Positions 11,993 through 33,916 of a stretch of DNA of 46,357 nt are shown one piece after another. The translations under genes were made by a program, and so were the position numbers. The notes under the pieces are model-generated. The model was given only the letters and a program-made list of their open reading frames with translations. It did no database searches and was not told the DNA's origin. This DNA is from Leucoraja ocellata (Eukaryota). The stretch lies in contig JAWMAR010004569.1 of NCBI GenBank assembly GCA_036785375.1, positions 1-46,357 on the forward strand, in the 5' to 3' direction. Positions within the stretch are counted from its first letter, which is position 1. Each line of letters begins with the position of its first letter.

Positions 11993-12024
11993 GGGATTTC
12001 AATGGAACTGAATGTATTGAAGAT

Positions 12025-12240: not shown

Positions 12241-12368
12241 TAAGGACAATATTTTCACTGTGGTGGCACCTCGCAGGTGACAATAAAATGCACCATTGTC
12301 CAGTGACCTCAGCTGCTAATACAACCCACACATGGCGCTGGCAATCCTCTTACCGTTTGACCAGCCTG

Positions 12369-12526: not shown

Positions 12527-12694
12527 CTGTAGGAATAAAACATCAAGTTCACCAATTACTTTCCCAGTTTCTTTCTGTTTCCTTCCATTCTTATACACCG
12601 AGATGTTCCCACTGCCATTGTAAACGTAGACCAATTCCCACACTTTAGTTGCCTGAACAGTAACAACAGATGTGGGAATCTTGCATAGAATTCA

Positions 12695-13919: not shown

Positions 13920-14380
13920 ATGGAGCAAGCTGCCAGAGGTCGTTGAGGCTGGGACTATCCCATCGTTTAAGAAGCAGTTGGACAGGTACATGGATAGGAC
14001 AGGTTTTGTGGGATATTGACCAGGCGCAGGCAGGTGGGACTAGTGTAGCTGGGACATTGTTGGCCGGTGTGGGCAATAGACAATAGACAATAGGTGCAGG
14101 AGGAGGCCATTCGGCCCTTCAAGCCAGCACCGCCATTCACTGTGATCATGGCTGATCATCCACAATCATTGCCCCGTTCCTGCCTTCTCCCCATATCCCT
14201 TGACTCCGTTATCTTTATATCTCTATCTAACTCTCTCTTGAACGCATCCAGAGAACCGGCCTCCACTGCCTTAAGACGCTGAGAATTCCACAGATTCACA
14301 ACTCTCTGGGTGAAAATGTGTTTTCTGATCTCAGTCCTAAATGGCCTACCCGTTATTCTTAAACTGTGTCCCATGGTTCC
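13920..14380. mobile_element. Two tail-to-tail CR1-type 3' ends
   Basis: Plus-strand 3' end to ~14074, then minus-strand 3' end GHSLRITGRPFRTE with (AATAGAC)n tail. Confidence 0.75.
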
Positions 14381-14507
14381 TCCATATATAATTAATGTCT
14401 GTGCCTATATCTGAACTGACAAAGCTCGGTTATTCAGGCGTGTAGTGGCCGGTGTTGAGAATGTTTTTTAGAACAGTAAAGACACATTTAAGGTAACGCA
14501 AACTTAC

Positions 14508-14840
14508 GTGTGACCGTGACATCTGTGCCGTGACCATTATATATTTCCCCTGGGAAAACACTCACTCGGCAGTAATACCTTCCTATATCGTTGACTTTGA
14601 GGTCAGTGATTTCGATGGATTATTTTAGAATTCCCGGTGAATTATTTTTCAGAACGCGACCATAATAGTCGCCGCTCGTGTTGGAAACGGCACGAGTTTC
14701 CACGTCTTTGTACCAACTAAAGGCCCCAACTGAACTGCTTGTGTTGCCAACAAATGCACAGTTTAGCCGCACAGTCCCGCCTTCAGTAACTGTGATCTGC
14801 TTCGGTGATTGTATGATCGATTCATCGGATCCAACAGCAC
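14508..14840 (-). pseudogene. NKp30-like VJ-type Ig V exon A1, disabled
   Basis: 333 nt; acceptor CAT instead of CAG; in-frame TAA at 14622-14620; donor C|gtaagt intact. Confidence 0.9.
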
Positions 14841-15294
14841 ATGAAACCAGAAATAATATTATAGTCTCGGCGCTGGCCTTTCGGCCCACCCCGTCAATGC
14901 CATCCATTACACCTATCTACACAATCCCATTTACTCGCGTTAGGATCATGGCCTTTCTCTGTCTCAGCGTTTCAAGTACTTGGCAAGACGCCTCTTAAAT
15001 GTCGTGAGACAACCCGGGCGTGGCAAACATTGACGCCAAGAGAGACAACCTGACTGCTCAACACCCGGCTTGAGATCTAACTATTCCTTTATTTATTCAT
15101 GTTTCATTCGCAAGAAGAAGAACTACAGCTATAAATCACCCCTGGTTTATGGAGGAGTCGGAGTGACTGGAGCGTGAATGTGAATTTAGAGGGAACTGGT
15201 TTGCTGTTCGATGGGGGAAAAATGGCTTCTTGCCTCGTTCTAGAAATGGGGATTTCGCCCACAATGGACAATAATCACTTTGGTTTAGTTTAGT

Positions 15295-15580
15295 TTAGAG
15301 ATACAGAGCGGATACAGGCCCTTCGGCCCACCGAGTCCGCTGCGATCAATGTTCCCAGCAAAATAATGCTATTCTACACACATTAAGGACAATTTAATTT
15401 TTTACCGAGGCCAATTTCCCTACAAACCAGTACGTCTTTGGAGTGTGGGAGGAAAACGGAGCTCCCGGTGAAACCCACACAGGGGGAACGTAAACTCCGT
15501 ACAGACAGAACCCGTAGTCAGGATCGAACCCGGCGTCCCTGGCGCTGTAAAGCAGCAACTCTACCGCCGCGCCACCGTGT
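15295..15580 (-). mobile_element. tRNA-derived SINE
   Basis: Reverse complement of the 3955 family; A and B boxes. Confidence 0.85.
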
Positions 15581-15789
15581 TGCCCCTCTCTCCAGCTTTC
15601 CTGAACCCACTGTACTTTCCTTACAGTTCCTCCATCTTTCCCGCCAGATTATGGTCATATGTTTGTTTTTCCGATTTTGTGCTTCAACATTCATGGATGT
15701 TACAGCGTCGAAAGCGACCATGAAATCGGCACGGATTATATCAAATGATGCACCGATTCTCTCTTCATCCCGTACACTGCTGCACAGTC

Positions 15790-16430
15790 TCTGGCCCAGA
15801 GTAGGGGAATCGAGGACCAGAGAACACAGGTTCAAGGTGAAGGGGGAAAGATTCAGTAGGAATCCGATGGGTAATTTTTTCGCCTTGAGGGCGCTCGATT
15901 TATGGAACAAGCTGCCAGAGGAGGTCGTTGAGGCTGGGACATTCCCATCGTTTAAGAAGCAGTTGGACAGGTACATGGATAGGACATGTTTGGAGGGATA
16001 TGGACCAGGCGCAGGCAGTTGGGACTAGTGTAGATGGGACATTGTTGGCCGGTGTGGGCAAGTTGAGCCGAAGGGCCTGTTTCCACACTGTATCACTCTG
16101 TGACTGATCTTGCACATTGGAATTTAAAAAAAAGAAATATAGAAAACTAGGTGCAGACGTAGGCCATTCGGCCCTTCCAGCCAGCACCGCCATTCAATAT
16201 GATCATCTGAAATCAGTACCCCGTTCCTGCATTCTCCCCATATCTCTTGATTCCGTTAGCCCTAAGAGCTAAATCTCCCTCCCTCTTTAAAACATCCAGT
16301 GAATCAGCCTCCACTGCCTTCTGTGGCAGAGAATTCCACAGATTCACAACTCTCTGGGTGAAAAGATGTGTCCTCGTCTCCGTTCTAAATGGCCTCCCCC
16401 TTATTTTCAAACTGTGTCCCCTGGTTCCTA
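15790..16430. mobile_element. Two tail-to-tail CR1-type 3' ends
   Basis: Paralogous to 13920-14380. Confidence 0.75.
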
Positions 16431-16530
16431 AATCGGATCTGACAACGTTTCGTTGTTGAGACGTGCGGTGGCCGGTGTTAAGGATGTTTTTGAGAACAGT
16501 AAAGACAAAGTTAAGATAACGCAAACTTAC

Positions 16531-16860
16531 GTGTGACTGTGACATCTGTGCCGTGACCATTATATATTTCCCCTGTGAAAACACGCACTCGGCAGTAATA
16601 CCTTCCTGTCTCGTTCATTTTGAGGTCAGTGATTTCGATGGACACTTTTAGAATCCCCGGTGAAATACTTGTTCGAACGCGGCCATAATAGTCGCCGCTC
16701 GTGTTGGAAACGGCCCGAGTTTCCACGTCTTTGTACCAACTAAAGGCCACAATTATATTCGGGTTCCCAACAAATGCACAGTTTAGCCGCACAGTCCCGC
16801 CTTCAGTAACTGTGATCTGTTTCGGTGATTGTATGATCGATTCATCGGATCCAACAGCAC
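16531..16860 (-). CDS. NCR3: NKp30/NCR3-like VJ-type Ig V exon B1, intact
   Basis: 330 nt, phase 1-1, ttccag|...C|gtaagt; canonical C, W, E-x-G-x-Y-Y-C and GHGTDVTV G strand; resembles NKp30 (C.F...W.KD...V.N...GR...YYCRV.V...G.GT...V). Family-level call, orthology not shown. Confidence 0.8.
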
Positions 16861-16879
16861 CTGGAACCAGAAATAATAT

Positions 16880-17355
16880 TTCTCCTGCATTGTCAGAGTG
16901 AGGCTAAATGCAAATTGGAGGAGCAGCATCTCATATTTGGTTTGGGCAGTTTACACCCCAGTGGTATGAATATTGATTTCTCTCACTTCAAGTAATTCCG
17001 GCATCCTCTCTCTCTCTCCCCCCCCCCCCCCCTCCCACCCCCACCCAAGTCGCACCAGCTTCTCGTTATCACCCAACACACAGCGAACAATGGCCTGTTA
17101 CCTTTATCATGGTTACTTTTCTCAGACAATCATGACAATAAAACTCATTTGAATCTTGACTGCTGACACCCTTTGCATATATGTCATTCATTATATCTCT
17201 CTATATCATCGCCTATATCTCTCGTTTCCCTTATCCCTAACCAGTCTGAAGAAGGATCTCGACCCAAAACGTCACACATTCCTTCTCTCCAGAGATGCTT
17301 CCTGTCCCGCTGAGTTTCTCCAGTTTTTTGTGTCTGCAGTTCCATCCAACACACA
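16880..17355 (+). mobile_element. Penelope-like 3' fragment with terminal repeat and degenerate hammerhead
   Basis: LLHCQSEAKCKLEEQHLIFGLGSLHPSGMNIDFSHFK*; CTGAAGA...AAAACGTC at 17246-17273. Confidence 0.7.
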
Positions 17356-17427
17356 AAGGCCAGTGGAGTCGGATTAAGAATGTTTTTTAAGAACAGTAAA
17401 GATAAAGTTAAGGTTCTGCAAACTTAC

Positions 17428-17751
17428 GTGTGACCGTGACATCTGTGCCGTGACCATGATATGTTCCCACTGCGAAAACACTCACTAGGCAGTAATACCT
17501 TCCTGTATCGTTCATTTTGAGGCCAGTGATTTCGATGGACACTTTTAGAATTCCCTGTGAATTATTTTTCAGAACGCGACCATAATAGTCGCCGCTCCTG
17601 TTGGAAACGGCACGAGTTTCCACGTCTTTGTACCAACTAATGAAACCAATTGCCTTGGCAACAAATGCACAGTTTAGCCGCACAGTCCCGCCTTCAGTAA
17701 CTGTGATCTGCTTCGGTGATTGTATGATCGATTCATCGGATCCAACAGCAC
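17428..17751 (-). CDS. NCR3: NKp30/NCR3-like VJ-type Ig V exon C1, intact
   Basis: 324 nt, phase 1-1, tttcag|...C|gtaagt; GAVGSDESIIQSP...CAFVAKAIGFISWYKD...YYCLVSVFAVGTYHGHGTDVTVT. Confidence 0.8.
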
Positions 17752-17918
17752 CTGAAACCAGAAAGAATATTATAGTCTCGGTGCTGGCCTTTCGGCCCAC
17801 CCCGTCAATGCCATCCATTACACCTATCTACACAATCCCATTTACTCGCGTTAGGATCATGGCCTTTCTATGTCTCAGCGTTTCAAGTTCCTGGCGAGAC
17901 GCCTCTTAATGTCGGGAG

Positions 17919-18356
17919 NNNNNNNNNNNNNNNNNNNNNNNNNNNNNNNNNNNNNNNNNNNNNNNNNNNNNNNNNNNNNNNNNNNNNNNNNNNNNNNNNN
18001 NNNNNNNNNNNNNNNNNNNNNNNNNNNNNNNNNNNNNNNNNNNNNNNNNNNNNNNNNNNNNNNNNNNNNNNNNNNNNNNNNNNNNNNNNNNNNNNNNNNN
18101 NNTCTCTCTATCCNNNNNNNNNNNNNNNNNNNNNNNNNNNNNNNNNNNNNNNNNNNNNNNNNNNNNNNNNNNNNNNNNNNNNNNNNNNNNNNNNNNNNNN
18201 NNNNNNNNNNNNNNNNNNNNNNNNNNNNNNNNNNNNNNNNNNNNNNNNNNNNNNNNNNNNNNNNNNNNNNNNNNNNNNNNNNNNNNNNNNNNNNNNNNNN
18301 NNNNNNNNNNNNNNNNNNNNNNNNNNNNNNNNNNNNNNNNNNNNNNNNNNNNNNNN
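17919..18356. other. N gap or masked tract with a CT island; hides the 3' end of the leader exon
   Basis: Ns; same position as the gap in unit 2. Confidence 0.95.
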
Positions 18357-18387
18357 GAAAGAACCAAGCGACCACACTCCACTGCAT
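18357..18387 (-). CDS. Signal-peptide exon (partial) of cassette 1: MQWSVVAWFF(L)...
   Basis: AAAGATGC start context; upstream acceptor tttgtgtttgtttccgcccacag at 18403-18402; hydrophobic; coding part identical in unit 2. Confidence 0.65.
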
Positions 18388-18861
18388 CTTTGAACGACTA
18401 CCTGTGGGCGGAAACAAACACAAAAACAGGCCAGGCAGCATCTGCGGAAGAAATGGGAAATCCGTCTGAAGAGAGGTCCAGACCCGAAACGTCGCCTGTC
18501 CATATTCTCCAGAGATGCTTCCTGACGCGCTGATCCATTTTGTCACGTTACAACCACAAACGCAAATGTATTTTATTGGGATTTTATGTGATAGACCAAC
18601 ACAAAGTGGCGCATAATTGTGAAGTGGAAGGAAAATTATACATGGTTTTCAATTTTTTTACAAATAAAAGACTTCCGGTGGCGGCATGCTTTGCTAGCAG
18701 TCGCAAATCTTTTAGCTCCGCTGAAAAAATCGCGATTTTTCGCGTTAAAATCGGGTTTGGAGGTCGGGACCGATCTTAAAGACTTACCGGAGTTTCATGT
18801 CGCGGTGCTGATGACGTCATCAGTAAGCGCCGTGGATTTAACGGAGGGAAACCGATTTTAA

Positions 18862-19875
18862 ATGAAAAAGACATCTACAGGTCAGAGCCCTCAGAGGAAA
18901 GTGTCAAAACAACTGCTGAAGTCTCAAGAACACCAAGAAACTGCAACACTAACCTCTGGAGTGGATTCTGGAATGGCTACACGATCTAAGACTGAGTTGA
19001 TCACAAAAGAGAAAACTGAAATGGAGGAATTAAAGAACTCGGTAAGAGATTTGAAAGAAGATGTGAAAGCTGGAAATTTAAACTTGATTGCTGGTAATGA
19101 AAAAATACTCGCGGGCATTGGCGCTCTGCAAAAAAAAGTTGATGATGTGCAAGAAGAGCTCACGGGGAAAATTACTAAGGTGGCAGAAGAGTCCACAAAG
19201 ATGTTTGAGGCTGTGCATGAAACTATTTCCGCAAATGCAAATGCAGTGAAAGATTTGGAAGCTGTTGTGGAAGAGATGGCTGGAGAAATGGAGGCAATGA
19301 AGTTAGAATTAGACAGCCTCAAGAGCCAATTTACAAAAGTATCTGATAAATGTGTTGATCTAGAAGCTCGCTCAAGACGTCAAAATATACGAATACGTGG
19401 AGTGAAAGAGGGAGCTGAGGGGGAAAACGCCCGTGAGTTCACTGCCAATTTAATTAAACATGTACTCAATTTACCTGAAGCACCAGTAATTGAAGAAGCA
19501 CATCGAGTACCTAGATTCAAGCCAAGATTCACTGGAGAACAAGCCTACCCACGACAGATTATAGTCAAACTTCGGGATATCCCAACAGTGGAAGCGCTGT
19601 TGAAAAAAATTAAATACGGAGAGAAGATGATATATGGAAATGATTCTATTAAACTTCTACGGGACTACCCTTATGAGATTGTGCTAAAGAGAAGAAAGTT
19701 CTCACAGACCAGAGAAGTTCTCTACGGTGTCAAGGGCGTCATATCTGGTGTGTTTTATCCGGCGAGGATGGGTATCACTTTTAAGGGAATCTCAAAAACA
19801 TTCACCAATCCGCTAGAATCTCTTAAATACGCAAAAGAAATCGTTGTTAAGGCAGCAGCAGCAGAAGAAGATTGA
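18862..19875 (+). CDS. L1 ORF1p (coiled coil, RRM, CTD)
   Basis: 337 aa open; LEARSRRQNIRIRGVKEG, IEEAHRV, PRQIIVKL, FYPARM. Confidence 0.93.
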   Translation: MKKTSTGQSPQRKVSKQLLKSQEHQETATLTSGVDSGMATRSKTELITKEKTEMEELKNSVRDLKEDVKAGNLNLIAGNEKILAGIGALQKKVDDVQEELTGKITKVAEESTKMFEAVHETISANANAVKDLEAVVEEMAGEMEAMKLELDSLKSQFTKVSDKCVDLEARSRRQNIRIRGVKEGAEGENAREFTANLIKHVLNLPEAPVIEEAHRVPRFKPRFTGEQAYPRQIIVKLRDIPTVEALLKKIKYGEKMIYGNDSIKLLRDYPYEIVLKRRKFSQTREVLYGVKGVISGVFYPARMGITFKGISKTFTNPLESLKYAKEIVVKAAAAEED

Positions 19876-20805
19876 TCACCAGACGTCAGGACTTAATTAA
19901 TGTGCTTATTCCCCTAACAAGAATATTAGTAGAAAATGTAAAAAGTGAATACCATCAAGATTTAAAAATGGCTATTTGCAGCAGATTTTCCATGAGGCTT
20001 GTCTAGACATTATAATCTTCTCTCGAATTTAATTCAAGGACATCCGATGTTTAAACCAGGAAAACAGATATAAGCACATCTGCCGAAGCTGAGAGAGAGT
20101 GAAAAACATCACATGGCCTTCCTACAGATTTTCATAGATTGTGTAAATAGAGAATTATTACTAACTAATTACTAACAATACTAATACATAATACATAAAC
20201 TGTTATTAATAAATATGTGTTATAACGTAGATAACATTGTAATCTCACAGGTTTCGCAGCTCGAGTGGGGAGGGGAAGAGACTCAGGCACCTGGCTTAAT
20301 TCCAGGAGCCTGACTCTGGTTAACCCTTTCAACGAACAGCTCACTTTTAACAATACTAAAACCAATTACAAATAGTTAAGAGATAAAGAGAGGAATATGT
20401 GTAACTGAATAATTGATTAGATTTGATAAGTCGGAATGAAACATATATATATATATATATATACTGTAATGGGGTGAAATAGAACTGATTTGGAAACGGT
20501 ACCTACCCCCTAGGTTATGAGCAATAAATTCAGCGGGGCTAACCTCATAACAGCTACGCCGGAAGCAATATTGATGTCATATCCCACAGACGAGTGGGCC
20601 ACTCACTACGGTGTAGGAAATCCAGACACCGTACATCTATTTTATATACCTTTTTTTTTTACTACCACAATATGTCACATTTGTGTGTTTTTTTTTCAAG
20701 GACAATCGCAGAGGGGTACTACCAAGAAAGTCTATAATATAAATGCTTCCAAAATAACCAGAGTCCTGAGGTATGGATGCACCACAATAAGTACGGTCAT
20801 TAAAA

Positions 20806-23800
20806 TTGGTAAAAATGTATGACGACAATCAAAGGAAAATGGGAGGAGTCACACTATGTAGTTGGAATATAAGGGGTATTAATGAACCTATTAAAAGGGG
20901 CAAGATACTAGCTCAGTTGAAAGCATACAACACGGACATTTCGTTCCTACAGGAAACTCATCTTAAACATCAAGATCAGACGAGATTGAGGGCTAACTGG
21001 ATAGGCCAAACATTTCACTCTTCATTCACTTCTAAATCTAGAGGCACTGCAATTATTATCCGTAAAGGAATCCCATTTAAATCAAAGAATACTATTTCAG
21101 ATAAGGAAGGGAGATATCTTATAGTAGCAGGAGAGATCAATAATATGCCAATTACGCTGGTAAATATATATGCGCCCAATTTTGATAACCCTCAATTTTT
21201 TACTAAAATTCTGAATAAAATTGCCGAATTTAATTATCAAAATGTTATAATCGGAGGGGACTTCAACTGTGTTTTAGACCCTTATTTAGATAAATCGATG
21301 CAAAAACAAAAAGGTAATATGAAATCTAAAACCAGTGAACTCTTACATACATATATGGAAAACACAAATATATCAGATGTATGGAGGATTGCAAATCCGA
21401 CGGGAAGGGACTACTCATTCTATTCAACGGTGCATAAAACATATTCACGGATAGATTATTTTCTTGTGGATACAAAATTAATTACACACACTATGAATCC
21501 TAAATACCACATTAATGCGATTTCAGATCACTCTCCTTTAACCTTTGTTTTAAAATTAGAAGGAATGTCCATGAATAAATCGTTCTGGAGGTTTAATTCG
21601 CAACTTTTAAAAGACCCACAAGGGAGTATATATCTAAAAAAACAGATGGACTTATTCTTTGAGATAAATGATACACCAGATATATCCCCCACGCTATTAT
21701 GGGAATCCTTTAAAGCATTTATTAGAGGAGTCATTATTTCATTTCAAGCTTACCAAAATAAAAAGAATAAGAAAGAACAAAGATATTTAGAAGAACAAAT
21801 AAAACAATTAGATATAGATAATGCTAAAGATCCAACTATGGATAAACATAATAAAATCCTATTATTGAAATTCAAGCTGAATAAATTATTGTCAGAGAAA
21901 GTTATAACATTATTCCAAGTTACAAAACAAGAACACTTTGAATTCGGGGACAAACCCCACAAACTCTTAGCACGCCAGTTGAAAAAACGGGAAAAAGAGA
22001 ATGCAATACTAAAGATTAAATCAGATAGTGGGGAATTATTAACACTACCCAAGGATATCAATAAAAGATTTGCTCAATTCTACGAAAATTTATATACATC
22101 TAAAACGTCAATAGATAATAATAAAATTTCAGAATTTCTGGAAGATTGTAACCTTCCAAAATTAGAATTGAGGGAACAAGAGGAACTGGGAGCAATAATT
22201 ACTTCTAAGGAGATAGAAGACACAATAAAAACACTAAAGAATGGTAAAACACCAGGACCAGATGGATTCAGTAGTGAATTCTATAAAGCCTTTTATGATA
22301 TAGTTACCCCACGATTACAGAAAATGTATACACACGCTTTTAAAGAGCAAAGCTTACCCGAAACATTAGCAGAATCAACGATCACATTAATACTTAAAAA
22401 AGATAAAAACATAGAAGAACCAGGTTCATATAGAGCTATTGCTTTGTTAAATACGGATCAAAAAATAATAGCGAAAACACTAGCCAGTAGATTAAGCAGG
22501 TACGTTAGTAGATTAATAAATGGAGATCAAACAGGATTTATACCTAAGAGACATTCATTTAATAATTTGAGACGTTTGCTTAACATAATGCACTCACATA
22601 AACCTCACGACCAAGAGTTATCTATTATCTCACTGGATGCAGAAAAAGCGTTTGATCAAGTAGAATGGGATTATATGATTAAAGTATTGCAAAAATTCCA
22701 ATTGGGAGAAAATTTTATCGCATGGATAAAACTATTATATAACAAACCTACGGCTAGAATATTAACTAATAATATCTTATCCTCGAAATTTGAACTATCA
22801 AGGGGCAATAGACAAGGATGCTCATTATCACCGCTGCTATTTGCTTTGATAATTGAACCCCTTGCTGAAAAAATAAGAACTCATCCGGATATTTATGGTT
22901 ATAATACAAAATACTCAAAGAATAAAATATCCCTATATGCCGATGATGTACTACTGTACATCACAAAACCACAAATTAGTATACCAAACATATTAAACTT
23001 AATAGAGGACTTTGGATCCTTTTCAGGATATAGAATAAATTGGAACAAAAGTGAAATTATGTCGATAAAACCAAAAGACTCAACACAGCTTCGGAAATTT
23101 CCCTTTAAAATAGCCACAGAAAAATTCAAATATTTGGGAATTGAAATTACTAGAAATTACCAGGATATGTTTAAAGCCAATTATAATCCTTTACTCAAGA
23201 AATTGAATAATCTGATTAAATTCTGGAAAACACTTCCGATGTCCTTAATAGGCAGAATAAATGCTATTAAAATGGTTTTCTTACCACAAATTCTATACCT
23301 ATTTCAATCAATACCTATATACCTCCCAAAAAAGTTTTTCAAAAAATTGGACTCAGACATTACAAATTTTATATGGGATTATAAATCCCATAGAATACAA
23401 ATAGCACACCTTAATAAACGAAAAGAGCTGGGGGGTCTAGCGCTCCCTAATTTTATGTATTATAACTGGGCAGTAAATATTAAAAATATGATTCACCTGC
23501 TGGACAATTCTGCACAGCAGGCGGACTGGATGGTAATGGAAAAAGGGGACTGCTCCCCGAGTAATATAGGAGCGATCATCCTCTCACCAACAAATTTGAA
23601 TAATAAAAATTATAATAAAAATCCAATTATACATAACACAATAAGAACATGGAAACAAATAAAACAGACTCTAAAATTAAGAAACCTATCTCTTTTAATA
23701 CCAATAGTCAATAATCCATCGTTTAAACCATCAATCATAGACAAATCATTTATACAATGGGAAAGAATGGGAATTAAAACGCTCGAAGATCTGTATGAAT

Positions 23801-24606
23801 TAGGGAATTTACTGTCATTTCAACAACTACAACTGAAATATAATTTGAAAAATAACCAATATTTTAAATATCTTCAAATCTGTGATTATTTGAAAAAATA
23901 CACAAAAGACTATCATAATATGTCTTCCGACTTATTGGATGAAGCAATGAAGACCAAGGCGGAATCAGCTAATTTAATATCGTACTTATATAACATCATT
24001 TTAAACATAGAAATACCCACAACAGATGGAATTAGAAAAGATTGGGAACAAGAATTAGCTATAAAAATCTCAAAAGGGACCTGGGATAATCATTTACTAC
24101 AGGTGCATAAATGTTCGATCAACGTACGGCATACGCTCATCCAATTTAAAACATTACATAGATTATATTATTCAAAAACTAAATTAAATAAAATCTTCCC
24201 TAATGTTTCACCAATCTGTGATAAATGCCTATGTCAAGAAGCTACCATAGCGCACTCTTTTGTTTTTTGTACAAAAATCCAAAAATTCTGGTATGAAATA
24301 TTTGATATTTTTTCAAAATTGATCAAAATAAAACTGGTACCAAAACCAGAATGGATTATCTTCGGAATATCGGAAGATAACCCTGAATTAAACATGTTTC
24401 AGAAGAATTTATTTAATTACGGGCTAATAATGGGAAAAAAGCTTATACTTAAATTCTGGAAAAATGCGCCGACACCAACAATAAAAATGTGGATATCAAA
24501 TATGTTTGAAACATTACACCTGGAAGAGATGAGATTCCTCCTAGCAGGTAAAGCAGACCAATTTCAAAAGACGTGGTCTATGTTTCTGGACCTATTACAA
24601 GTATGA
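20806..24606 (+). CDS. L1 ORF2p (APE endonuclease, reverse transcriptase, CCHC); true start probably the ATG at 20815 or 20839
   Basis: Uninterrupted; SWNIRG, LQETH, GGDFN, SRIDY, SDH, PGPDG, LDAEKAFD, RQGCSLSP, YADD, CDKC...HSFVFC. Confidence 0.96.
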   Translation: MVKMYDDNQRKMGGVTLCSWNIRGINEPIKRGKILAQLKAYNTDISFLQETHLKHQDQTRLRANWIGQTFHSSFTSKSRGTAIIIRKGIPFKSKNTISDKEGRYLIVAGEINNMPITLVNIYAPNFDNPQFFTKILNKIAEFNYQNVIIGGDFNCVLDPYLDKSMQKQKGNMKSKTSELLHTYMENTNISDVWRIANPTGRDYSFYSTVHKTYSRIDYFLVDTKLITHTMNPKYHINAISDHSPLTFVLKLEGMSMNKSFWRFNSQLLKDPQGSIYLKKQMDLFFEINDTPDISPTLLWESFKAFIRGVIISFQAYQNKKNKKEQRYLEEQIKQLDIDNAKDPTMDKHNKILLLKFKLNKLLSEKVITLFQVTKQEHFEFGDKPHKLLARQLKKREKENAILKIKSDSGELLTLPKDINKRFAQFYENLYTSKTSIDNNKISEFLEDCNLPKLELREQEELGAIITSKEIEDTIKTLKNGKTPGPDGFSSEFYKAFYDIVTPRLQKMYTHAFKEQSLPETLAESTITLILKKDKNIEEPGSYRAIALLNTDQKIIAKTLASRLSRYVSRLINGDQTGFIPKRHSFNNLRRLLNIMHSHKPHDQELSIISLDAEKAFDQVEWDYMIKVLQKFQLGENFIAWIKLLYNKPTARILTNNILSSKFELSRGNRQGCSLSPLLFALIIEPLAEKIRTHPDIYGYNTKYSKNKISLYADDVLLYITKPQISIPNILNLIEDFGSFSGYRINWNKSEIMSIKPKDSTQLRKFPFKIATEKFKYLGIEITRNYQDMFKANYNPLLKKLNNLIKFWKTLPMSLIGRINAIKMVFLPQILYLFQSIPIYLPKKFFKKLDSDITNFIWDYKSHRIQIAHLNKRKELGGLALPNFMYYNWAVNIKNMIHLLDNSAQQADWMVMEKGDCSPSNIGAIILSPTNLNNKNYNKNPIIHNTIRTWKQIKQTLKLRNLSLLIPIVNNPSFKPSIIDKSFIQWERMGIKTLEDLYELGNLLSFQQLQLKYNLKNNQYFKYLQICDYLKKYTKDYHNMSSDLLDEAMKTKAESANLISYLYNIILNIEIPTTDGIRKDWEQELAIKISKGTWDNHLLQVHKCSINVRHTLIQFKTLHRLYYSKTKLNKIFPNVSPICDKCLCQEATIAHSFVFCTKIQKFWYEIFDIFSKLIKIKLVPKPEWIIFGISEDNPELNMFQKNLFNYGLIMGKKLILKFWKNAPTPTIKMWISNMFETLHLEEMRFLLAGKADQFQKTWSMFLDLLQV

Positions 24607-25380
24607 GGTGCAATAGTAATCTAAAAAAAAAACAAATATATAAATAAGCGGAATCAGGACCTGGTAACGGGAGGTAAAATAACAAAAACAGACTTGGTTG
24701 GTAGTCCCCTCTCTGCGGAGTTTAATGTTATAATAGAGCGATTGTTTCTACTTTCTCCTTCTTTCCTTTCTAGGGTCTATTTTCTCACTTTACTTCCTTC
24801 TCTAACTTCTTTCCTAAGGGGCTTTCTTTTCCTTACACTCTCGCACTGCACGATTCTCTTGCACTTTCTTTACTTTCCTAACTTCTACTTTTTTCTTAAA
24901 GCTCTAAAAAAAAAAAAAAATGAAGCGGTATAAAAAATGTATCAAGATATATGTGTTGTGTAGAATTGTAATTTACCGTACTTCTAATAAAAATAAAAAA
25001 AATAAAATAAAAAATAAAAAACTGAAAAGTGTGGCGTGCAAAAGTAATCAGCCCCCTTTACTCTGATGCCCCTAAATAAAATCCAGTGCAACCAATTGCC
25101 TTTAGAAGTCACCTAATTAATAAATAAAATCCACTTGTGTGTAATCTAATCTCGGTATAAATACAGCTGTTCTGTGAAGGCTTTAGAGGTTTGTTAGAGA
25201 ACATTAGTGAACAAACAGCATCAAGAAGCCCAAGGAACACACCAGACAGGTCAGGGATAAAGTTGTGGAGAAGTTTAAAGCAGGGTCAGGTTATAAAAAA
25301 ATATCGCAACCTTTGAACATCTCACGGAGCACTGTTCAACCCATCACCGAAAATGGAAAGCGTATATGGCACATATGCAA

Positions 25381-25747
25381 TGTAACTGCCCCACATCGGC
25401 AGTTAGTTAAATTCTGAACCTCACGTTTTTTGGTTCCTACCTGTAATAGTGGCGTTCCTAAGGACGGAATTAAATTGCCAACTTAGTTTCCGTGGGGGTA
25501 CGGTTGTTGGCCACCTTGGAGGGCAGCAAAGAAAAAGGAAGCAACACAAAGGGGATACACGGCCAAAATAAGTTAAATGTTAAATAAACAAGATCATAAA
25601 GAAAGACAGAAGCCATGGCTAAGAAGAAACCAAGAAATACCTCTTAAGTATTAAGCAGTGGATGAGTTCTCACGGGTTGGTTGGAGCCGAAAATAAACCC
25701 CGTATTTAACCACGACCTCAGGCCTCGTGTACTAATTGGGAGCTACA
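25381..25747 (+). repeat. 5' LTR of BEL/Pao element (unit 1)
   Basis: TGTAACT...AGCTACA inverted termini; begins exactly where Tc1 is cut. Confidence 0.7.
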
Positions 25748-28390
25748 GTGAGAACTCGACTGCTCTGCATGAGTAGCCGAGGAGGACGTCACCAGACGGC
25801 AGCAGCCGAGAAGAGACGAACCATATCCATGCTGTGTGTGTATTTTCTACCACCACCTACGCTGAAACACAAGAAGAGCAAGCCCACAGGAAGGCCCAGG
25901 TGCCGCTAGTGTGAATATTGCTGCTAAGGAAAAACTCATGTTTTGCACAAAAGACATATATTATCTACATTTTCATTTAATAAGTTGATGTTGTTATTTT
26001 CTACAACTAAAGGACTTTAAGTGTTTTGCACAAGAGACTGAGATATAATGTGCATTTCATTTATGTTGTTTACTTACATTTCCTTATTGAAGACCATTGA
26101 TACTCACACTGTGTTGATATTGAGAATTAGTTTATTGATGGTTACACTGTAAACATTCTGTTAAAACAAGCAGTACTCATAGTAATTTGAAGGTGCATTT
26201 CTGTTACTTAACAAGTGTTTAATGCATATGTAACTTACCTGTGGAAGAGTTGATACCTTTATTTGTCTAATTATCACTCAGAGTGATTTAAGTTGATAAC
26301 ACTATAACATTTATTTATTAATTAGGTACTTACTCAACATAAGAAAATATTAGATTTAAACCAAACTAAAGTAAACCAAGTAAAGTGTCAGAGTTTGAGC
26401 TTTCCCCTGAAAGTGACAGAGAAGATGATGAAGGCGATGACACGAAACAGCACTGCCCAGACGCACAACCACAAACGACCAAAGGCACTGGAGATGATAT
26501 CCACACTTCCTCACAAGAGCCACAAAGAGGCCAAAGAGTCCACAAGCTAACGGAAAAGGGCCAAGAACTGCACGATGAGCAAGTAAGAAAGGTTGCACAC
26601 CGTTTAAGTGTGAGCTACGAGAAGTGGAAGGCTGTCATTAAGGACGCCAAAGGGGCGCTGAGTGGTCAATGCTCAAACAACCTGCTGAATGAACACATCA
26701 CCAAGGTAAGCAATGCTTCAAAGAATCTGAACGCTGTTTATGAAGAGCTGAGACACATCGGCATTCTAGATCATGACACACGTCGCAGAGTAGACACATG
26801 TGAAGCACTAACAAAGAAGATAATCAAAACTGCAAGAGGTTATCTAAACACGGGAAAGAGTGAATGTCAAGTGGATGAAGAACAAGGTGTTAAAGATACA
26901 GAATCTGTGTTCAAGTCTGCAGCCTCAGATAAGATGAGCATCAAATCTCACCGCACCAAATCCTCCTGGTGAAGAAAGGATATATTATCTGCGAAGGTAT
27001 GTGGGTGGAGCTGCCAAGAAGGCCATAGAGAGTTACTTTCTGCTAGGCACAGAGTCAGCCTATCATGCAGCGTGGACCATCCTAGAACAGAGATATGGCA
27101 ATCCATTCCTCATCGCCAAAGCCTTCAGAGACAAGCTTGATTCATGGCCCAAGATAAGCTCCAAAGGCAGTTTAGAACTTCAAGATCTCACTGACTTCCT
27201 TCGCATCTGTGAGGCCGCCATGTCTCAGATTAGAGGTCTTGAGGTACTCAATGACTGCAACGAGAATCAGAAAATGCTTGCTAAACGTCCAGACTGGCTG
27301 ACCTCAAGATGGAACAGGAAAGTCATAAAAGTGGAAGAACAAAGTCACAAGTTCCCAAGCTTCAGCCAATTCGTCAAGTTCCTCACACGTGAAGCAAAAA
27401 TTGCTTGCAACCCGATAACGTCCCTCTACGCTCTAAAACCAAGTGAAGTTGAGAAGAGCAAGGCTTCAATGAACAGAGGTCTTGGAGCAAAGGTATTGGT
27501 AACAAACTCTGATGAGAAGGCTGTCGCCACAAGCTGTGTGTTCTGTGAGAGGGAAGGTCACAGTCTACACAAGTGTTATAAATTCATGGATGAGACGGTC
27601 TCTGAGCGAGTCACGTTTGTTCAAGAAAGGAAGTTGTGCTTTGGCTGTCTGAAGTCTGGCCATCGGTCAAAGGAATGTGAAAACAGAATGATCTGCAATA
27701 CATGTGAAAGGAGACATCCAACTTGCCTCCATGACAATCGCACCAAGGAAGAAAGGATGTTAACAAGGCCTGATGAAGCAAGAGACCGTGAGCTGTCAAC
27801 GGAAGGCAAGATGAACCGATCACAAGATAAGACAACAAGAACCTCACCGGAGGCAACACCCAATAGAGTCATCCAGCATGTCAAAGACACCCATACGTCC
27901 ACCATCATCCCAGTGTGGGTGTCAGCCACAAGTGAGCCTAATCGTGAAGTTCTTGTGTATGCACTTCTGGATACACAGAGTGACACAACCTTTCCCCTAG
28001 AAGACACTGCAAAAGCTCTACACGTGAAGAACAAACCAGTTCAGCTAAAGCTCTCCACAATGGCTTCAAGAAACACAGTTGTGTCCGATTGGCTACAACT
28101 GTCCTCAAGCTCTCGTCCCAAGACAAGTGCTACCTGGTGAAGAAAATAAGCCCTTTGCCCGGAGAACCGACTTGGGCTGGAGTGTAGTTGGCTATGGCAA
28201 CCTATGTCTCGATTATGGAGATGCTATTGGAGTGAGTCACCAGGTTATCGTGAAGCAAGTGATATCAGGTGTTCAGTCCTCTTCAAACCTCACAAGCGAA
28301 GTGCATTATGTCCGTAGAACACAGATCAAGGAAGTAGTCTCACCTGCAGCTGTCATCAAGGTGCTGGAAGCTGACTTTGTGGAAAGAATT
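25381..28390 (+). mobile_element. BEL/Pao LTR retrotransposon, 3' truncated (gag and protease relic)
   Basis: Three Zn knuckles CVFC..H..C, CFGC..H..C, CNTC..H..LH; protease ALLDTQSDTTF; no RT, IN or 3' LTR. Confidence 0.9.
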
Positions 28391-29845
28391 TCAGAGTCAA
28401 TTATTAAAGATGTAATAATGGGGCATTTGGATAGCAGGAAAAGGATTAGTCCAAGTCAACATGGATTTATGAAAGGGAAATCATGCTTGACGAATCTTCT
28501 GAATTTTTTAAGGATGTGACGTAAAATGGATGAAGAGGAGCCAGTGGACGTAGTGTATCTAGACTTTCAGAAAGCCTTTGATAAGGCCCCGCACGGGAGA
28601 CTGGTGGCTAAAATTAGAGCGCATGGTATTGGGGGTAGGGTGTTGACATGGATAGAAAATTTGTTGGCAGACAGGAAGCAAAGAGGAGGAGTGAACGTGT
28701 CTTTTTCAGATTGGCAGGCAGTGGCGAGTGGAGTGCCACAAGGCTCGATGTTGGGGCTACAACTGTTTACCATATATATTAATGATTTGGAAGAGGGAAT
28801 TAGGAGCAACACTAGCAAGTTTGCGGATGACACAAAGCTGGGAGGCAGCGTGAACTGTGAAGAGTATGTTAGGCGGTTGCAGGGTGACCTGGACAGGTTG
28901 AGTGAGTGGGCAGATGCGTGGCAGATGCAGTATAATATAGATAAATGTGGGGTTATACACTTTGGCGGAAAAACAAGGGGGCAGATTATTATCTCAATGG
29001 GGTTAGGTTAGGTAAGGGGGAGGTACAGTGAGACCTGGGTGTCCTTGTACACCTGTCACTGAAAGGTGGCATGCAGGTACAGCAGGCAGTGAAGAAAGCT
29101 GATGGAATGGTAGCCTTCATTACAAGATGATTTCAGTATCGGAGTAGAGAGGTTCTTCTGCAGTTGTATAGGGCTCTGGAAAGACCAAATCTGGAGTATT
29201 GTGTACAGTTTTGGTCTCCGAATTTGAGGGAGGACATCCTTGTGATTGAGGCAGTGCAGCATAGATTCACGAGATTGATCCCTGGGATGGCGGGACTGTC
29301 ATATGAGGAAAGATTGAAAAGACTAGGCTTATATTCACTGGAGTTTAGAAGGATGAGGGGTTATCTTATAGAAACATATAAAAGTATAAAAGGACTGGAC
29401 AAGCTAGATGCAGGAACACATTCCCAATGTTGGGCGAGTCCAGAACCCGGGGCCACGCAGTTTTAGAATAAAGGGGAGGCATTTAAGACTGAGGCGAGAA
29501 AAAAACGTTTTCACCCAGAGAGTTGTGAATTTGTGGAATTCCCTGCCACAAAGGGTAGTGGAGGCCAAGTCACTGGATGGATTTAAGAGAGAGTTAGATA
29601 GAGCTCTAGGGGCTAGTGGAATCAATGGATATGGGAAGAAGGCAGGCACGGGTTATTGGTTACACAGAAAAGCTGGAGAAACTCAGCGGGTGCAGCAGCA
29701 TCTATGGAGCGAAGGAAATAGGCAACGTTTCGGGCCGAAACCCTTCTTCACGGGTTATTGATTGGGGACGATCAGCCATGATCACAATGAATGGCGGTGC
29801 TGGCTCGAAGGGTCAAATGGCCTCCTCCTGCACGTATTTTATGTT
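28391..29845 (+). mobile_element. CR1 ORF2 3' half and 3' UTR, with a small Penelope-repeat insert at ~29660-29750
   Basis: YLDFQKAFDK, GVPQGS, FADDTKL; insert flanked by repeated CACGGGTTATTG. Confidence 0.9.
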
Positions 29846-29847
29846 TT

Positions 29848-30128
29848 GGAGATACAGCGCGGAAACAGGCCATTCGGCACACCGTACCGCACCGACCAGC
29901 GACCCCCGCACATTAACACTACACTACACACACTAGGAACAATTTACATATATACTGAACCAATTAACCTACAAACCTGTATGTCTTTGGAGTGTGGGAT
30001 GAAACTGAAGATCTCGGAGACAACAGGACGAACAAACTCCGTACAGACAGTACCCGTAGTCGGGATCGAACCTGCGTTTCTGCCGCTGAAAGTGCTGTAA
30101 GCAGCAACTCTACCGCTGCGCCACCGGG
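29848..30128 (-). mobile_element. tRNA-derived SINE
   Basis: A and B boxes on the minus strand. Confidence 0.85.
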
Positions 30129-30391
30129 TCGCCCTAATGACACTTGATTCTCACATGTACCTTGATGCAGTGAAATGCTTTGTTCTGCAGACAATCCGGC
30201 AATAACCATGTTCTCCACAGTTGCTGCTGCTCCTTTGGGATGTTGTGATCTTTTACTTGTGTTTATTCCTTGGGTTAATTTCAAACACTATTTCAGATTG
30301 TTTGTTAACACATTGCGGAGATTGGAAATGTTTTATCTGAGATCGGGTTGCAGTGAACGCTAAGGAGAGGAGCTGTAGGATTCTACAAGAC

Positions 30392-30938
30392 CAAGATCTG
30401 AGGAAGGATGTGCTGGCTCTGGAGAGGGTCCAGAGGAGATTTACAAGAATGATCCCAGGATTGAGTGGGTTAACATATGATGATCGTTTGACGGCACTGG
30501 GCCTGTACCAGCAGGAATTTAGAAGGATGAGAGGTGATGCCATTGACATTTACTGAACAGTGAAAGGCTTGGATAGAGTAGATGTGGAGATGATTATTCC
30601 ACTGACGAGAGAGTCTAGGACTCGAGGTAATAGCCTCAGAATTAAAGGAGGTTCTTTTCGGAAGGAGATGGGGAGAAATTTATTTAGTCAGAGGGTGGTG
30701 AATCTGTGGAATTCTTTGCCACAGAAGGTTGTGGATGTCAAATCAGTGGATATTTGTAAGGCAAAGATAGATAGATTATTGATTAGTACAGGTGTTAGAG
30801 GAATGGGGAGAAGGCAGGAGAATGGGGTTAGGAGGGAGATATAGATCAGTCATGATTGAATGGTGGAGTAGACTTGATGGACCAAATGGCCTAATTCTGC
30901 TCCTATCACTTATGACCTTATGACCTTATGACCTTATG
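30392..30938 (+). mobile_element. CR1 3' fragment
   Basis: Paralog of 9520-10065. Confidence 0.85.
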
Positions 30939-31159
30939 AGACACATACGTGTATTTACCGGTAGAATGGACATCCGTGTAACAGATGAGACTTATTACAG
31001 TTTCGGATACAGCAGGACTTTTAATAACTTTCCAGCGCACATCATTCAGCGATAAATTGTTGTCATTATATAAAGAACATGAACAAGGTCCTATTAACAA
31101 AGTGTCATTATTGGTCTATTATTACAACCTGTAACAATCTCTGTCAAATCACACCATTG

Positions 31160-31178
31160 TGGCGCCATCTTGTGGCCG
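31160..31178 (-). promoter_or_regulatory. CTCF/YY1-type motif, unit 2
   Basis: CGGCCACAAGATGGCGCCA. Confidence 0.6.
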
Positions 31179-31963
31179 AGACACCTTGGTGTCGAAGATT
31201 CGTTTGTTGAGCTCGAACTGTCGCCTGAACTGGCGTGATCTGACATTAGAAAATTCACAGTTCAATATTGGGTTCTAAGCTACCGAGATGGAGAATGAAG
31301 TCATGTTTCTCCAATGGCCTCACTCAGGCAATGGAGGAGACTCAGGGCAGAGGGGTCGGTGTGGGAATGGGAAGGAGAGTTAAAATGGTTTGAAACCGGG
31401 AGATCCATCAGGCAAATGGATCGCAAGAGGACTATCCGAAAATAGATACAAAAAGCTGGAGTAACTCCGCGGGTCAGGCAGCATATCTGGAGAAAAGGAA
31501 TGGGTGATGTTTCAGGTGAAGACGCTTCTTCACAGGGTATCGCCGCTTGGGGAGGTGCAGCAGGATCTGGGGGTCCTTGTTCATCAGTCAATGAAAGTGG
31601 GCATGCAGGTGCAGCAGGCAGTGAAGGAAGCGAATGACATGTTGGCCCTTATAACAAGAGGAGGTGAGTATAGGAGCAAAGAGGTCCTTCTGCAGTTGTA
31701 CAGGGCCCTAGTGAGACCACACCTGGAGTATTATCCGCAGTTGTGGTCCCCTAATTTGAGGAAGGACATTCTTGCTATTGAGGGAGTGCAGCGTAGGTTT
31801 ACAAGGTTAATTCCCGGGATGGCGGGACTGTAATATGCTGAGAGAATGGAGCGGCTGGGCTTGTATACTGTAGACCAAATATTGTCTGTTGTCTATTGTC
31901 TAATGGTTTGCGTTTGAAATGTAACCACTCTGACTTGAATCTGTTGTTGTCAGGATCGAACAA

Positions 31964-32146
31964 ACAACAAGGCAATGTGGAGTTTTAATGAGTGTAAGAT
32001 TTCACAAATTACATTATCCCAAATGGCCCACAACAGTATCAGCACAGCTGACTGAGCTAATGTTGATTCAGTAATGAGTTTGCTTTTCATGGTTTGACCT
32101 GTTGCATGAGTTGATTCATATATGGAGGGAGTTCAACACTTATGGT
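31964..32146 (-). other. Predicted terminal (3' UTR) exon of cassette 2
   Basis: Acceptor at 32148-32147; ATTAAA at 31989-31984. Confidence 0.6.
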
Positions 32147-32887
32147 CTGTGAAAATAAAATAGATATATTATTATACCACATGTACAGGCACAAAAACAT
32201 TAATACCATTGAACACAATTGACTACATTATTGTTATTAAAGTTCTTGTCAAGTATGTGTCCACATAGCTCCTAGTCATAGAGTCATGGAGTGATACAGC
32301 GTGGAAACAGGATCTTATGGCCCACACTCCCCACACCGGCCAACATGTCTCAGCTACACTAAACCCACCTATCCATGTACCATCCAAGTCTTGTATGAGC
32401 TCCTTATTTCTGGCCAGGCTCGGTCTAGTTTTCCCTGTCATGTCGCCTTTGTTATGTTGCAGTAAGTCTACGTTGCAAGATTCAAGAGGGTTTGCACTAG
32501 TTACAACTTTGTTGTTGGTTTTGTTGATTATATTTTATCTAAGTTTGTTGTACCGACAACCGGACAATGGAATTCTTACTGGCAGCAGCGTAACAGGGCT
32601 GTACATACAACACACTTAGATAAAATATAATAAACAAAACCAACAATAAATGTGTATCTGGTACAAACACCAAGATCCTTGGTGCAACACAAGGAAGTCC
32701 ATTCATGTTCATAGTTGAGCCTGGTCTTCTGTGTTGCTCAAGAGCCTGATAGTTGCAGGGAAGAAGCTGTTCTTGAACCTGGTGGTCACGGCTTTCAGAC
32801 TCAGATATCTTCTACTTGATGGTAGGAGTGTAATGAGAGCGTGGCCAAGGGAGTGTGGGATTTCAATGGAACTGAATGTATTGAAGA

Positions 32888-33068
32888 TTAGTTTAGTTTT
32901 TAATTTAAGTTAATTTAAGTTTAGTTTAGTTTCGCTTAGATTAGTTTAATTTTGTTTAGTTAGGTTTGTTTAAATTTAGTTAAGTTTGGTTTGGTTCGGT
33001 TTGGTTTGGTTTGGTTTGGTTCGGTATGGTTTGGTTTGGTTCGGTTCAGTTCAGTTTAGTTTAGTTTG
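32888..33068. repeat. (TTTAG/TTTGG/TTCGG)n microsatellite
   Basis: Direct observation. Confidence 0.9.
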
Positions 33069-33196
33069 TAAGGACAATATTTACACTGTGGTAGCACCTC
33101 GCAGGTGACAATAAAATGCACCATTGTCCAGTGACCTCAGCTGCTAATACAACCCACACATGGCGCTGGCAATCCTCTTACCGATTGACCAGCCTG

Positions 33197-33354
33197 TTAG
33201 GCTTCTTTTGTCCGGCTGGCAAATCCACAAGACTCCCATGAGCGGATGATGAAAACTATTATAACGTTGATCACAATGAACGTTGCAAGTTTCACTCCCA
33301 TTCCCAGCAGCTGCCAACGTAATCCCCATGCAGGGCTTTCTACAGGAATCCCGC
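33197..33354 (-). CDS. Transmembrane/cytoplasmic exon, cassette 2: (R)GIPVESPAWGLRWQLLGMGVKLATFIVINVIIVFIIRSWESCGFASRTKEA*
   Basis: Acceptor, frame, Lys, stop and post-stop donor (33181) all conserved. Confidence 0.85.
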
Positions 33355-33522
33355 CTGTAGGAATAAAACATCAAGTTCACCAATTACTTTCCCAGTTTAT
33401 TTCTGTCTCCTTCCATTCTTATACACCGAGATGTTCCCACTGTCATTGTAAACGTAGACCAATTCGCACACTTCAGTTGCCTGAACAGTAACAACAGATG
33501 TGGGAATCTTGCATAGAATTCA

Positions 33523-33774
33523 AAGTGCTGGAGTTAGTCAACGGGTCAGGCAGAATCTGTGGAGAACATGGATAGGTGACGTTTCACAGAGTGCTGGAGT
33601 AACTCAGCGGGTCAGGCAGCATCTGTGGAGAACATGGATAGGTAACGTTTCACAGAGTGCTGGAGTAACTCAGCGGGTCAGGCAGCATCTGTGGAGAATA
33701 TGGATAGGTGACGTTTCACAGAGTGCTGGAGTAACTCAGCGGGTCAGGCAGCATCTGTGGAGAACATGTATAGG
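33523..33774. repeat. 66-bp tandem repeat, ~4 copies
   Basis: Same unit as 12695-13340. Confidence 0.95.
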
Positions 33775-33861
33775 ATTCCTCTTCTTGCGTATGGCGTGCA
33801 TTGCCCAAAGTTGTTGGACAACTTGTTCTATTTGACCTTATTTGATTGTGTACACCAGGTT

Positions 33862-33916
33862 GATTGCATTCGTCGAAACAGGGCGGACCACGTGAAGGTT
33901 GCAATCTCCAAACCCC
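33862..33916 (-). ncRNA. Minimal HDV/CPEB3-like ribozyme motif (P2 and P3 perfectly paired) heading the short element at 33775-33917
   Basis: GGGGTTTGG-A-GATTGCA-ACC-TTCACGT-GGT-CCGCCCT-GT-TTCGA-CGAA-TGCAATC. Confidence 0.75.

What the first reader, a model, noticed from the sequence alone, without database searches (positions are those of the whole stretch)
18388..28400. Cassettes appear to lack their own promoter: possible shared upstream first exon
Seen: the leader ATG lies 14 nt inside an exon preceded by a good acceptor (tttgtgtttgtttccgcccacag). Everything upstream, to the unit junction, is TE (Penelope piece, Tc1, L1, BEL), and beyond the junction lies the 3' flank of the next cassette. 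Inference: the duplication breakpoint fell in intron 1, so the ancestral non-coding exon 1 and promoter lie outside the repeated unit. Internal cassettes would then be reached by long-range splicing/poly(A) choice from one promoter (an inverse-protocadherin layout), be driven by co-opted TE or flank promoters, or be silent donors.
Basis: inference. Interest (0 to 1): 0.72.

Follow-up and report, generated by a model that had tools for sequence, protein, structure and literature searches.

The report
Promoter-less NKp30-like gene copies in skates
A skate or ray immune-receptor gene was copied in tandem, apparently without its first exon, and a trace of RNA evidence suggests the copies are read by transcription running through from an upstream copy; a regulated 'one promoter, many cassettes' system is possible but not shown.

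Summary
The window has tandem units (junctions at 28394 and 41888), each carrying a minus-strand batoid NCR3/NKp30-like gene: leader exon, 2-3 VJ-type IgV exons, and a Lys-bearing transmembrane exon. Between the leader's acceptor and the unit junction lies repeat DNA, and the breakpoint sits inside a BEL element nested in Tc1. RNA shows the acceptor in use, on thin data. One contig (of 32 laid) joins a leader exon to a second leader exon exactly at 18402|18401, and one raw read (of 2028) stops there. A DNA contig runs through unspliced. No unique exon 1 was seen. The best reading is 5'-truncated duplicates reached by read-through splicing, in an array that is decaying: unit B has no usable visible V exon. 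A regulated inverse-protocadherin choice is unproven (about 12%). Still open are transposon promoters with antisense donors inside the unit (notably an intact L1 in unit A), a proximal start site, and a locally duplicated leader.

The parts
18357..18401 (-). Leader exon of cassette A, visible part (14-nt UTR, ATG at 18387); inferred full length 57 nt, phase 1-1
   Evidence: tblastn to P0001 residues 1-10; length inferred joint
18402..18426 (-). 3' splice site and polypyrimidine tract containing the GC box (18406-18411); used in RNA
18427..18533 (.). High-copy short repeat in two inverted pieces (Penelope-type by recall), fused directly to Tc1
   Evidence: Rfam blank
18536..18669 (+). Tc1 left end lacking its outer ~45 bp
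   Evidence: X2 loose end at 18536 shows the normal Tc1 end
18670..25016 (+). Full-length L1, unit A only; open ORF1 (18862-19872) and ORF2 (to 24603), A-rich target duplication; CpG-rich 5'UTR with TGACGTCA at 18812 and antisense donor motif at 18788
25017..25380 (+). Remainder of the Tc1 5' part, up to the start of the transposase
   Evidence: unit B copy
25381..28393 (+). BEL-type LTR element, cut by the unit junction; putative 5' LTR 25381-25747; antisense donor motif at 26239
   Evidence: LTR limits inferred
17428..17751 (-). V exon a (VJ-type IgV), open frame, AG acceptor
16531..16860 (-). V exon b, open frame, AG acceptor
14508..14840 (-). V exon c, in-frame stop, acceptor lacks AG
12371..12526 (-). 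Terminal TM exon of cassette A, coding part (Lys in TM, short tail)
8604..28393 (.). Unit A, the 3'-terminal unit; CR1 continuous across 8604
28394..41887 (.). Unit B
41888..46357 (.). Start of unit C (3' flank only, cut by the window end)
38179..38223 (-). Leader exon of cassette B, visible part, identical to A's; ATG at 38209
36886..37217 (-). V exon b of unit B, frameshifted (332 nt), AG acceptor
34943..35275 (-). V exon c of unit B, open frame, acceptor lacks AG
33199..33354 (-). TM exon of cassette B, coding part
38357..41887 (+). Tc1 5' part (38357-38847) and BEL (38848-41887) upstream of cassette B; antisense donor motif at 39704

Best explanation
The gene is an activating NCR3/NKp30-like receptor whose leader exon is an internal exon. 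A duplication with breakpoints in an upstream BEL and a downstream CR1 copied everything except the ancestral first exon and promoter, and this unit then multiplied. Internal copies have no gene promoter. They are transcribed when polymerase from upstream in the array reads through a TM exon with weak poly(A) signals, and an upstream donor (a leader exon's, or exon 1's) splices to the next unit's leader acceptor. The leader exon is 57 nt and phase 1-1, so leader-to-leader joins keep the frame. This is probably low-level and unregulated, in an array under birth-and-death. Shown: anatomy, junctions, acceptor use (thin). Inferred: exon 1 beyond the array's 5' end, read-through, and that the joined leaders belong to different units.
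For:: 1 of 32 X1 contigs covers 18357-18402 and has a joint from 18402 back to 18357 with 11 letters between; 45+11+1 = 57 nt, the length predicted by the 14-codon leader of P0001. 1 of 2028 X9 reads covers 18363-18402 and stops at the acceptor (a chance 40-nt match is expected about 1.5e-4 times). An X2 DNA contig runs unspliced over 18357-18447 with 1 mismatch and shows no joint. X1 has zero depth on Tc1, where X2 has 1e5-7e5, so X1 behaves as RNA. All 31-mers in a Logan contig file are distinct (10.1101/2024.07.30.605881), and the two sides total at least 80 nt against 76 for a single-exon circle, so the two leader copies should differ. The first AATAAA lies about 2.5 kb beyond the TM stop in both units, with only ATTAAA before it. 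Skipping the upstream terminal exon and using the first downstream acceptor is the usual read-through pattern (PMC13501980 section 5). Weak hint: the Hypanus relative P0012 has an N-terminal extension with Gly five residues before the leader Met, the same spacing as here.
Against: The RNA evidence is one contig of depth 3.14 and one read; X13 has 0 of 3508 reads on the exon. The X9 read's partner was not displayed; it comes from another organism label and could simply end there. No exon 1 was seen and the array's 5' end is outside the window. X1 is from organism A, whose best DNA run holds only 0.68 of the V-region words, so its locus may be built differently. Read-through can expose hidden acceptors in front of true first exons. 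Donor motifs exist inside each unit.
Confidence: 0.45

Rival explanations
1. Transposon-driven cassettes: antisense activity of the L1 5'UTR (unit A) or the BEL 5' region (all units) makes a new first exon that splices to the leader acceptor.
For: All upstream elements lie head-to-head with the gene. The L1 5'UTR has CpG o/e 1.69, a palindromic TGACGTCA and a CCG|GTAAGT donor 387 nt from the acceptor (GTAAGT reached in 3 of 200 shuffles). CAG|GTAAGT lies at 26239/39704; strong donors number 3 against a shuffle mean of about 0.3 (1 of 200). The intact L1 sits in the only cassette with usable V exons. Human L1 antisense promoters do this (PMC12255080 passages).
Against: The donor pattern was chosen after seeing the sites. 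No read joining them was sought, because the laid stretch ended at 18640. The one resolved junction comes from a leader exon, not a transposon. Antisense promoters of fish L1 were not found's listing.
Confidence: 0.15
2. Each cassette has its own proximal start site near the GC box. The leader is exon 1, and the AG is a hidden acceptor (perhaps repeat-derived) used only in rare read-through.
For: GC box at 18406 and a CCAAT at 18579. The T-rich tract resembles the tail of the adjoining repeat (by eye). X13 has depth about 1 at 18417-18426. Hidden acceptors are described.
Against: No RNA depth at 18407-18416 in X1, X9 or X13. Both exon-covering records stop at the acceptor. No TATA box within 500 nt, and no pile-up of starts.
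Confidence: 0.15
3. The leader-leader joint comes from a leader exon duplicated inside one cassette of organism A, or from exon repetition or an assembly path. Internal cassettes are essentially silent and serve at most as recombination donors.
For: V exons are locally duplicated. Parts of the leader-V intron read N and are longer in unit B. Units are mosaics of 92-98% identity. No RNA holder on record was listed (not evidence either way).
Against: Only 2 leader copies are visible in the window, one per unit. A same-exon circle does not fit the contig lengths. The acceptor would still be functional.
Confidence: 0.13
4. Regulated inverse-protocadherin system: one promoter and exon 1 at the array's 5' end, with cell-by-cell choice of cassette by long-range splicing and poly(A) choice.
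For: The layout permits it; the acceptor is used; frames are compatible; V exons differ by 4-10%; a Mobula relative has one-V and two-V isoforms.
Against: No exon 1 was seen. Unit B looks dead. Reaching unit A needs at least 19.8 kb per skipped unit past a terminal exon. The first 74 nt of leader and acceptor are identical in A and B, with no sign of differential control.
Confidence: 0.12

Closest known systems
NCR3/NKp30 family of cartilaginous fish (nurse shark NCR3 QTT61898.1; RefSeq 'NCR3-like' of Pristis, Hemitrygon, Mobula)
   Same: Single-exon VJ-type V, split leader, charged TM; 36% identity of V exon a to nurse shark NCR3; the family profile's best single-domain PDB match is human NKp30, E 3e-20.
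   Different: A batoid subfamily far from the nurse shark sequence in the tree; Lys in the TM; 2-3 V exons per cassette; tandem units without a visible promoter.
5'-truncated segmental duplicates (HYDIN2, ROCK1P1, GTF2IP1/4, CHRFAM7A; PMC6169893, passages)
   Same: The duplicate lacks the ancestral start site and must be silent, use an internal or exapted promoter, or fuse to upstream sequence.
   Different: Here the copies are head-to-tail and keep the whole coding region, so the upstream donor is a sister copy and fusion could yield full-length receptor.
Transcription-induced chimeras / cis-splicing of adjacent genes (PMC13501980, abstract and section 5)
   Same: The upstream terminal exon is skipped and the first downstream acceptor is used.
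   Different: The seen joint also skips the V exons; for these cassettes read-through may be the only route to expression.
Clustered protocadherins and UGT1A (recalled, no call)
   Same: An array of variable cassettes sharing an exon.
   Different: Those have one promoter per variable first exon and shared 3' exons; the reverse layout here is only a possibility.
Chicken BG array (PMC4046983, passages)
   Same: A tandem IgV immune array with hybrid genes, expansion and contraction.
   Different: [quoted passage not shown]
L1 antisense-promoter chimeras (PMC12255080, passages)
   Same: A full-length L1 head-to-head with a gene, with an antisense donor near a gene acceptor.
   Different: Described for human L1; no such transcript was tested here.

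Membership tests
NCR3/NKp30 family | One exon encodes a whole VJ-type IgV domain including the GxGT strand | tested here: met
NCR3/NKp30 family | Split leader with a phase-1 intron | tested here: met
   V exons start in phase 1 with the leader's end; P0001 alignment
NCR3/NKp30 family | Charged TM residue for an ITAM adaptor | tested here: met
   Lys in both TM exons, conserved in 6 of 6 activating-type homologues; charge coupling described in PMC12272517
NCR3/NKp30 family | Closer to NKp30 than to other V-set proteins | tested here: met
   Profile A2 against PDB: NKp30 ranks 3, 5, 6 and 7; ranks 1, 2 and 4 are multi-domain antibody chains. The single V exon query did not list NKp30 in its top 60 of 521, and the Atlas suggested generic V-set/CD83.
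NCR3/NKp30 family | Orthology to shark NCR3 by tree | tested here: inconclusive
   no outgroup, long branches meet
NCR3/NKp30 family | MHC or MHC-paralogon linkage; B7-H6 binding | not testable with these tools
   no genome held
5'-truncated tandem duplicate | Ancestral start site and exon 1 lie outside the duplicated unit | tested here: inconclusive
   only repeats upstream and the acceptor is used, but exon 1 was not seen
Transcription-induced chimera | Same-strand neighbours; an upstream exon spliced to the first downstream acceptor | tested here: inconclusive
   one leader-to-leader joint; its two halves could not be assigned to units
Shared-promoter cassette choice (inverse protocadherin) | One unique exon 1 spliced to several cassettes | tested here: inconclusive
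   no such junction among 2 exon-covering RNA records
Shared-promoter cassette choice (inverse protocadherin) | Several cassettes are functional alternatives | tested here: not met
   1 of 2 complete units has a visible V exon with both open frame and AG acceptor; N-read stretches and further units are unseen
Shared-promoter cassette choice (inverse protocadherin) | Regulated or clonal choice | not testable with these tools
   needs single-cell long reads
L1 antisense-promoter chimera | Transcript from the L1 5'UTR spliced into the gene | not tested
   motifs only; the laid stretch ended before the L1

The most novel reading that the evidence does not exclude
A batoid NKp30-like array works as an inverse protocadherin locus: one promoter and non-coding exon 1 at the 5' end, frame-neutral 57-nt leader exons, and competition between splicing and poly(A) sites that picks which germline VJ cassette (and which V exons within it) a cell displays. 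This would be a recombination-free way to vary a non-rearranging antigen-receptor-like gene, with a young L1 perhaps rescuing the farthest cassette.
Probability: 0.12. Interest if true: 0.85.

Novelty: new variant of a known kind. Interest (0 to 1): 0.5.

Why it matters
If the best explanation holds, gene counts for shark and ray NK-receptor arrays overstate the number of independently expressed genes. It would also show how a coding-complete but promoter-less copy can stay expressed through a sister copy. If the regulated version holds, it would be a new way of choosing among germline V cassettes in the oldest jawed-vertebrate lineage, in a VJ-exon family tied to the origin of antigen receptors. 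One 5' RACE or long-read experiment separates the cases.

Tried and rejected
No whole genome was held, so the array's 5' end could not be inspected. No RNA holder on record was listed among 24 runs; 4 of the 24 were laid. Metagenome scans by protein (226 pattern matches, 0 confirmed) and by a leader-exon pattern (0) found nothing. Rfam on 18357-18900 gave 1 chance-level hit. The bacterial promoter scan does not apply to a vertebrate and was ignored. A 'near' protein search with the V exon gave 0 of 2 candidates. Earlier-findings look-ups were empty. The GC box as proof of a promoter was rejected: it is part of the splice tract, and no RNA lies over most of it. The pyrimidine score as proof of an acceptor was rejected as too common. 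A same-exon circular RNA was judged unlikely from contig arithmetic. Flaws in my inputs: alignment A2 holds one out-of-frame 15-residue row (used); the tree holds one untrimmed row, P0017; the shuffles are approximate. The shark NCR3 paper (Kinlein 2021) was not held; I saw only its reference entry, so what it says on gene structure is unknown to me. Searches listed no paper on promoter-less NCR3 cassettes in rays; most subscription papers are not covered, and no supplements were read.
Full report
What the window is. Self-comparison shows three head-to-tail units: A 8604-28393, B 28394-41887, and C from 41888 to the window end, 91-98% identical by segment. The joins at 28394 and 41888 are the same fusion of a BEL-type element to a CR1-type RT fragment, while at 8604 the CR1 frame runs through unbroken. 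Unit A is therefore the 3'-terminal unit, and the array's 5' end lies to the right, outside the window. No genome was held to follow it.

The gene. On the minus strand each complete unit has a leader exon, V exons and one terminal exon with a Lys-bearing transmembrane segment and a short tail. Of the five V exons, two (17751-17428, 16860-16531, both in unit A) have an open frame and an AG acceptor. One has a stop and no AG, one is frameshifted, and one is open but has no AG. Unit B thus has no usable V exon in the visible sequence; part of its leader-V intron reads N. The nearest protein is Rhinoraja LOC144602683 (67% over the V), with the same leader-V-TM plan. Other relatives are ray proteins named NCR3-like, in activating (Lys) and tyrosine-motif-tailed forms. 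A profile of the family finds human NKp30 as the best single-domain structure (E 3e-20), and V exon a is 36% identical to nurse shark NCR3. The tree does not settle orthology. I file it as an NCR3/NKp30-like batoid receptor.

The observation. The ATG is 14 nt inside an exon preceded by the quoted acceptor, and the GC box is at 18406. Upstream lie a high-copy short repeat, a Tc1 5' part, a full-length L1 (unit A only) and a BEL cut by the junction. The 'Penelope' name is recalled, and about 1 kb of the BEL 5' region is assigned by position. Tc1, L1 and BEL all point away from the gene. The short repeat is fused to a Tc1 end lacking its outer ~45 bp, in both units, so a deletion of unknown size also occurred about 135 nt from the exon. 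By sequence alone the acceptor is unremarkable.

RNA test. Of 24 runs listed, four were laid on 18357-18640 at 86% likeness. In X1 (organism A, contigs, RNA by guess), 1 of 32 laid contigs covers the exon. It spans 18357-18402 at depth 3.14 and carries a joint from 18402 back to 18357, with 11 letters between and 40 on the shorter side. In transcript sense this is a leader exon followed by a leader exon entered exactly at the predicted acceptor; 45+11+1 gives 57 nt, as the homologue's 14-codon leader predicts. X1 has no depth on Tc1, where the DNA run X2 has 1e5-7e5, so it behaves as RNA. In X9 (organism C, raw RNA, about 5% read), 1 of 2028 laid reads covers 18363-18402 and stops there; its other part was not shown. 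X13 has 0 of 3508 on the exon and about depth 1 at 18417-18426. None of the three RNA sets has depth at 18407-18416, and no start pile-up was listed. In X2 a contig runs unspliced over 18357-18447 with one mismatch. Because all 31-mers of a Logan contig file are distinct (10.1101/2024.07.30.605881, passages) and a 57-nt circle would give sides summing to 76 rather than at least 80, the two leader copies should differ. That is an inference; I did not see the contig. This is two records in all, from organisms whose identity with the window's is not established.

How it most likely works. The leader is an internal exon, and the repeated unit carries the whole coding region but not exon 1. Polymerase from upstream passes a terminal exon whose first AATAAA is about 2.5 kb away, and an upstream donor joins the next unit's leader acceptor, 19.8 kb on in the case of B to A. 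This matches the read-through pattern reviewed in PMC13501980 (abstract and section 5) and the fates of 5'-truncated duplicates in PMC6169893 (passages). The 14 nt before the ATG are open in phase 1, so leader-leader joins keep the frame. With one of two complete units dead, leak within a birth-and-death array is more likely than regulated choice (0.45 against 0.12).

Rivals. Donor motifs lie inside the unit on the gene's strand: at 18788 in the CpG-rich L1 5'UTR and at 26239/39704 in the BEL 5' region. They were picked after inspection and not tested in RNA, but an L1 antisense promoter (described for human L1, PMC12255080, passages) next to the one intact cassette is a concrete alternative (0.15). 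A proximal start with a hidden acceptor remains possible at this depth (0.15), as does a locally duplicated leader with silent internal copies (0.13).

Literature. I read the abstract and passages of PMC12227049 (NCR3 as a non-rearranging, MHC-linked VJ gene), and passages of PMC10751288, PMC12272517 and PMC4046983. The shark NCR3 paper was not available and may describe exon structure. Nine searches listed nothing on promoter-less cassettes in this family. No supplements were read.

Verdict. Observation confirmed; interpretation partly supported. It is a new variant of a known kind (5'-truncated tandem duplicates with read-through splicing) in an NKp30-like array. Interest 0.5, rising to 0.85 if one promoter proves to select among cassettes.

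Noticed in passing
window 18670-25016 (+): Full-length L1 with uninterrupted ORF1 (337 aa) and ORF2 frame and an A-rich target duplication, absent from unit B; it looks young and possibly active.
   Followed up: partly
window 16880-17751: Unit A has an extra V exon (a), closer to the c type (93-94%) than to b (90%), separated from V exon b by a repeat insertion that ends about 20 nt before b's acceptor.
   Followed up: partly
window 14840 and 35275: Both c-type V exons share the same lost acceptor (CAT), yet the unit B copy keeps an open frame; a possible gene-conversion donor.
   Followed up: no
P0001, P0005 (Rhinoraja LOC144602683 and LOC144602684); P0002, P0014: The family has activating (TM Lys) and tyrosine-motif-tailed members, with consecutive locus ids in Rhinoraja, which suggests paired receptors; no such tail exon was found in the window.
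   Followed up: partly
P0003, P0006, P0007 (Mobula birostris): One gene has two-V and one-V isoforms, so the tandem V exons appear to be alternatively spliced in a relative.
   Followed up: no
window 18441 and 38263 (-): A second acceptor-like site inside the short repeat, 40 nt upstream of the used one.
   Followed up: no
window 18548-18617 in runs X9 and X13: Tc1-matching RNA reads show many T>C and A>G changes that are absent or rare in the DNA run, strand-split in X13, which resembles A-to-I editing; the DNA run is from another organism label.
   Followed up: no
window 12685-13340 and 33513-33774: A tandem array of a 66-bp repeat unit in the V-TM intron differs in copy number between units (about 10 against about 4).
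   Followed up: no
window 6070-7386 (+): An internally deleted Tc1 copy of the same family with both inverted ends, outside the array.
   Followed up: partly
units A and B: Identity is higher over Tc1/BEL (96-98%) than over the 3' flank (94-96%), which suggests mosaic units from unequal crossover or conversion.
   Followed up: no
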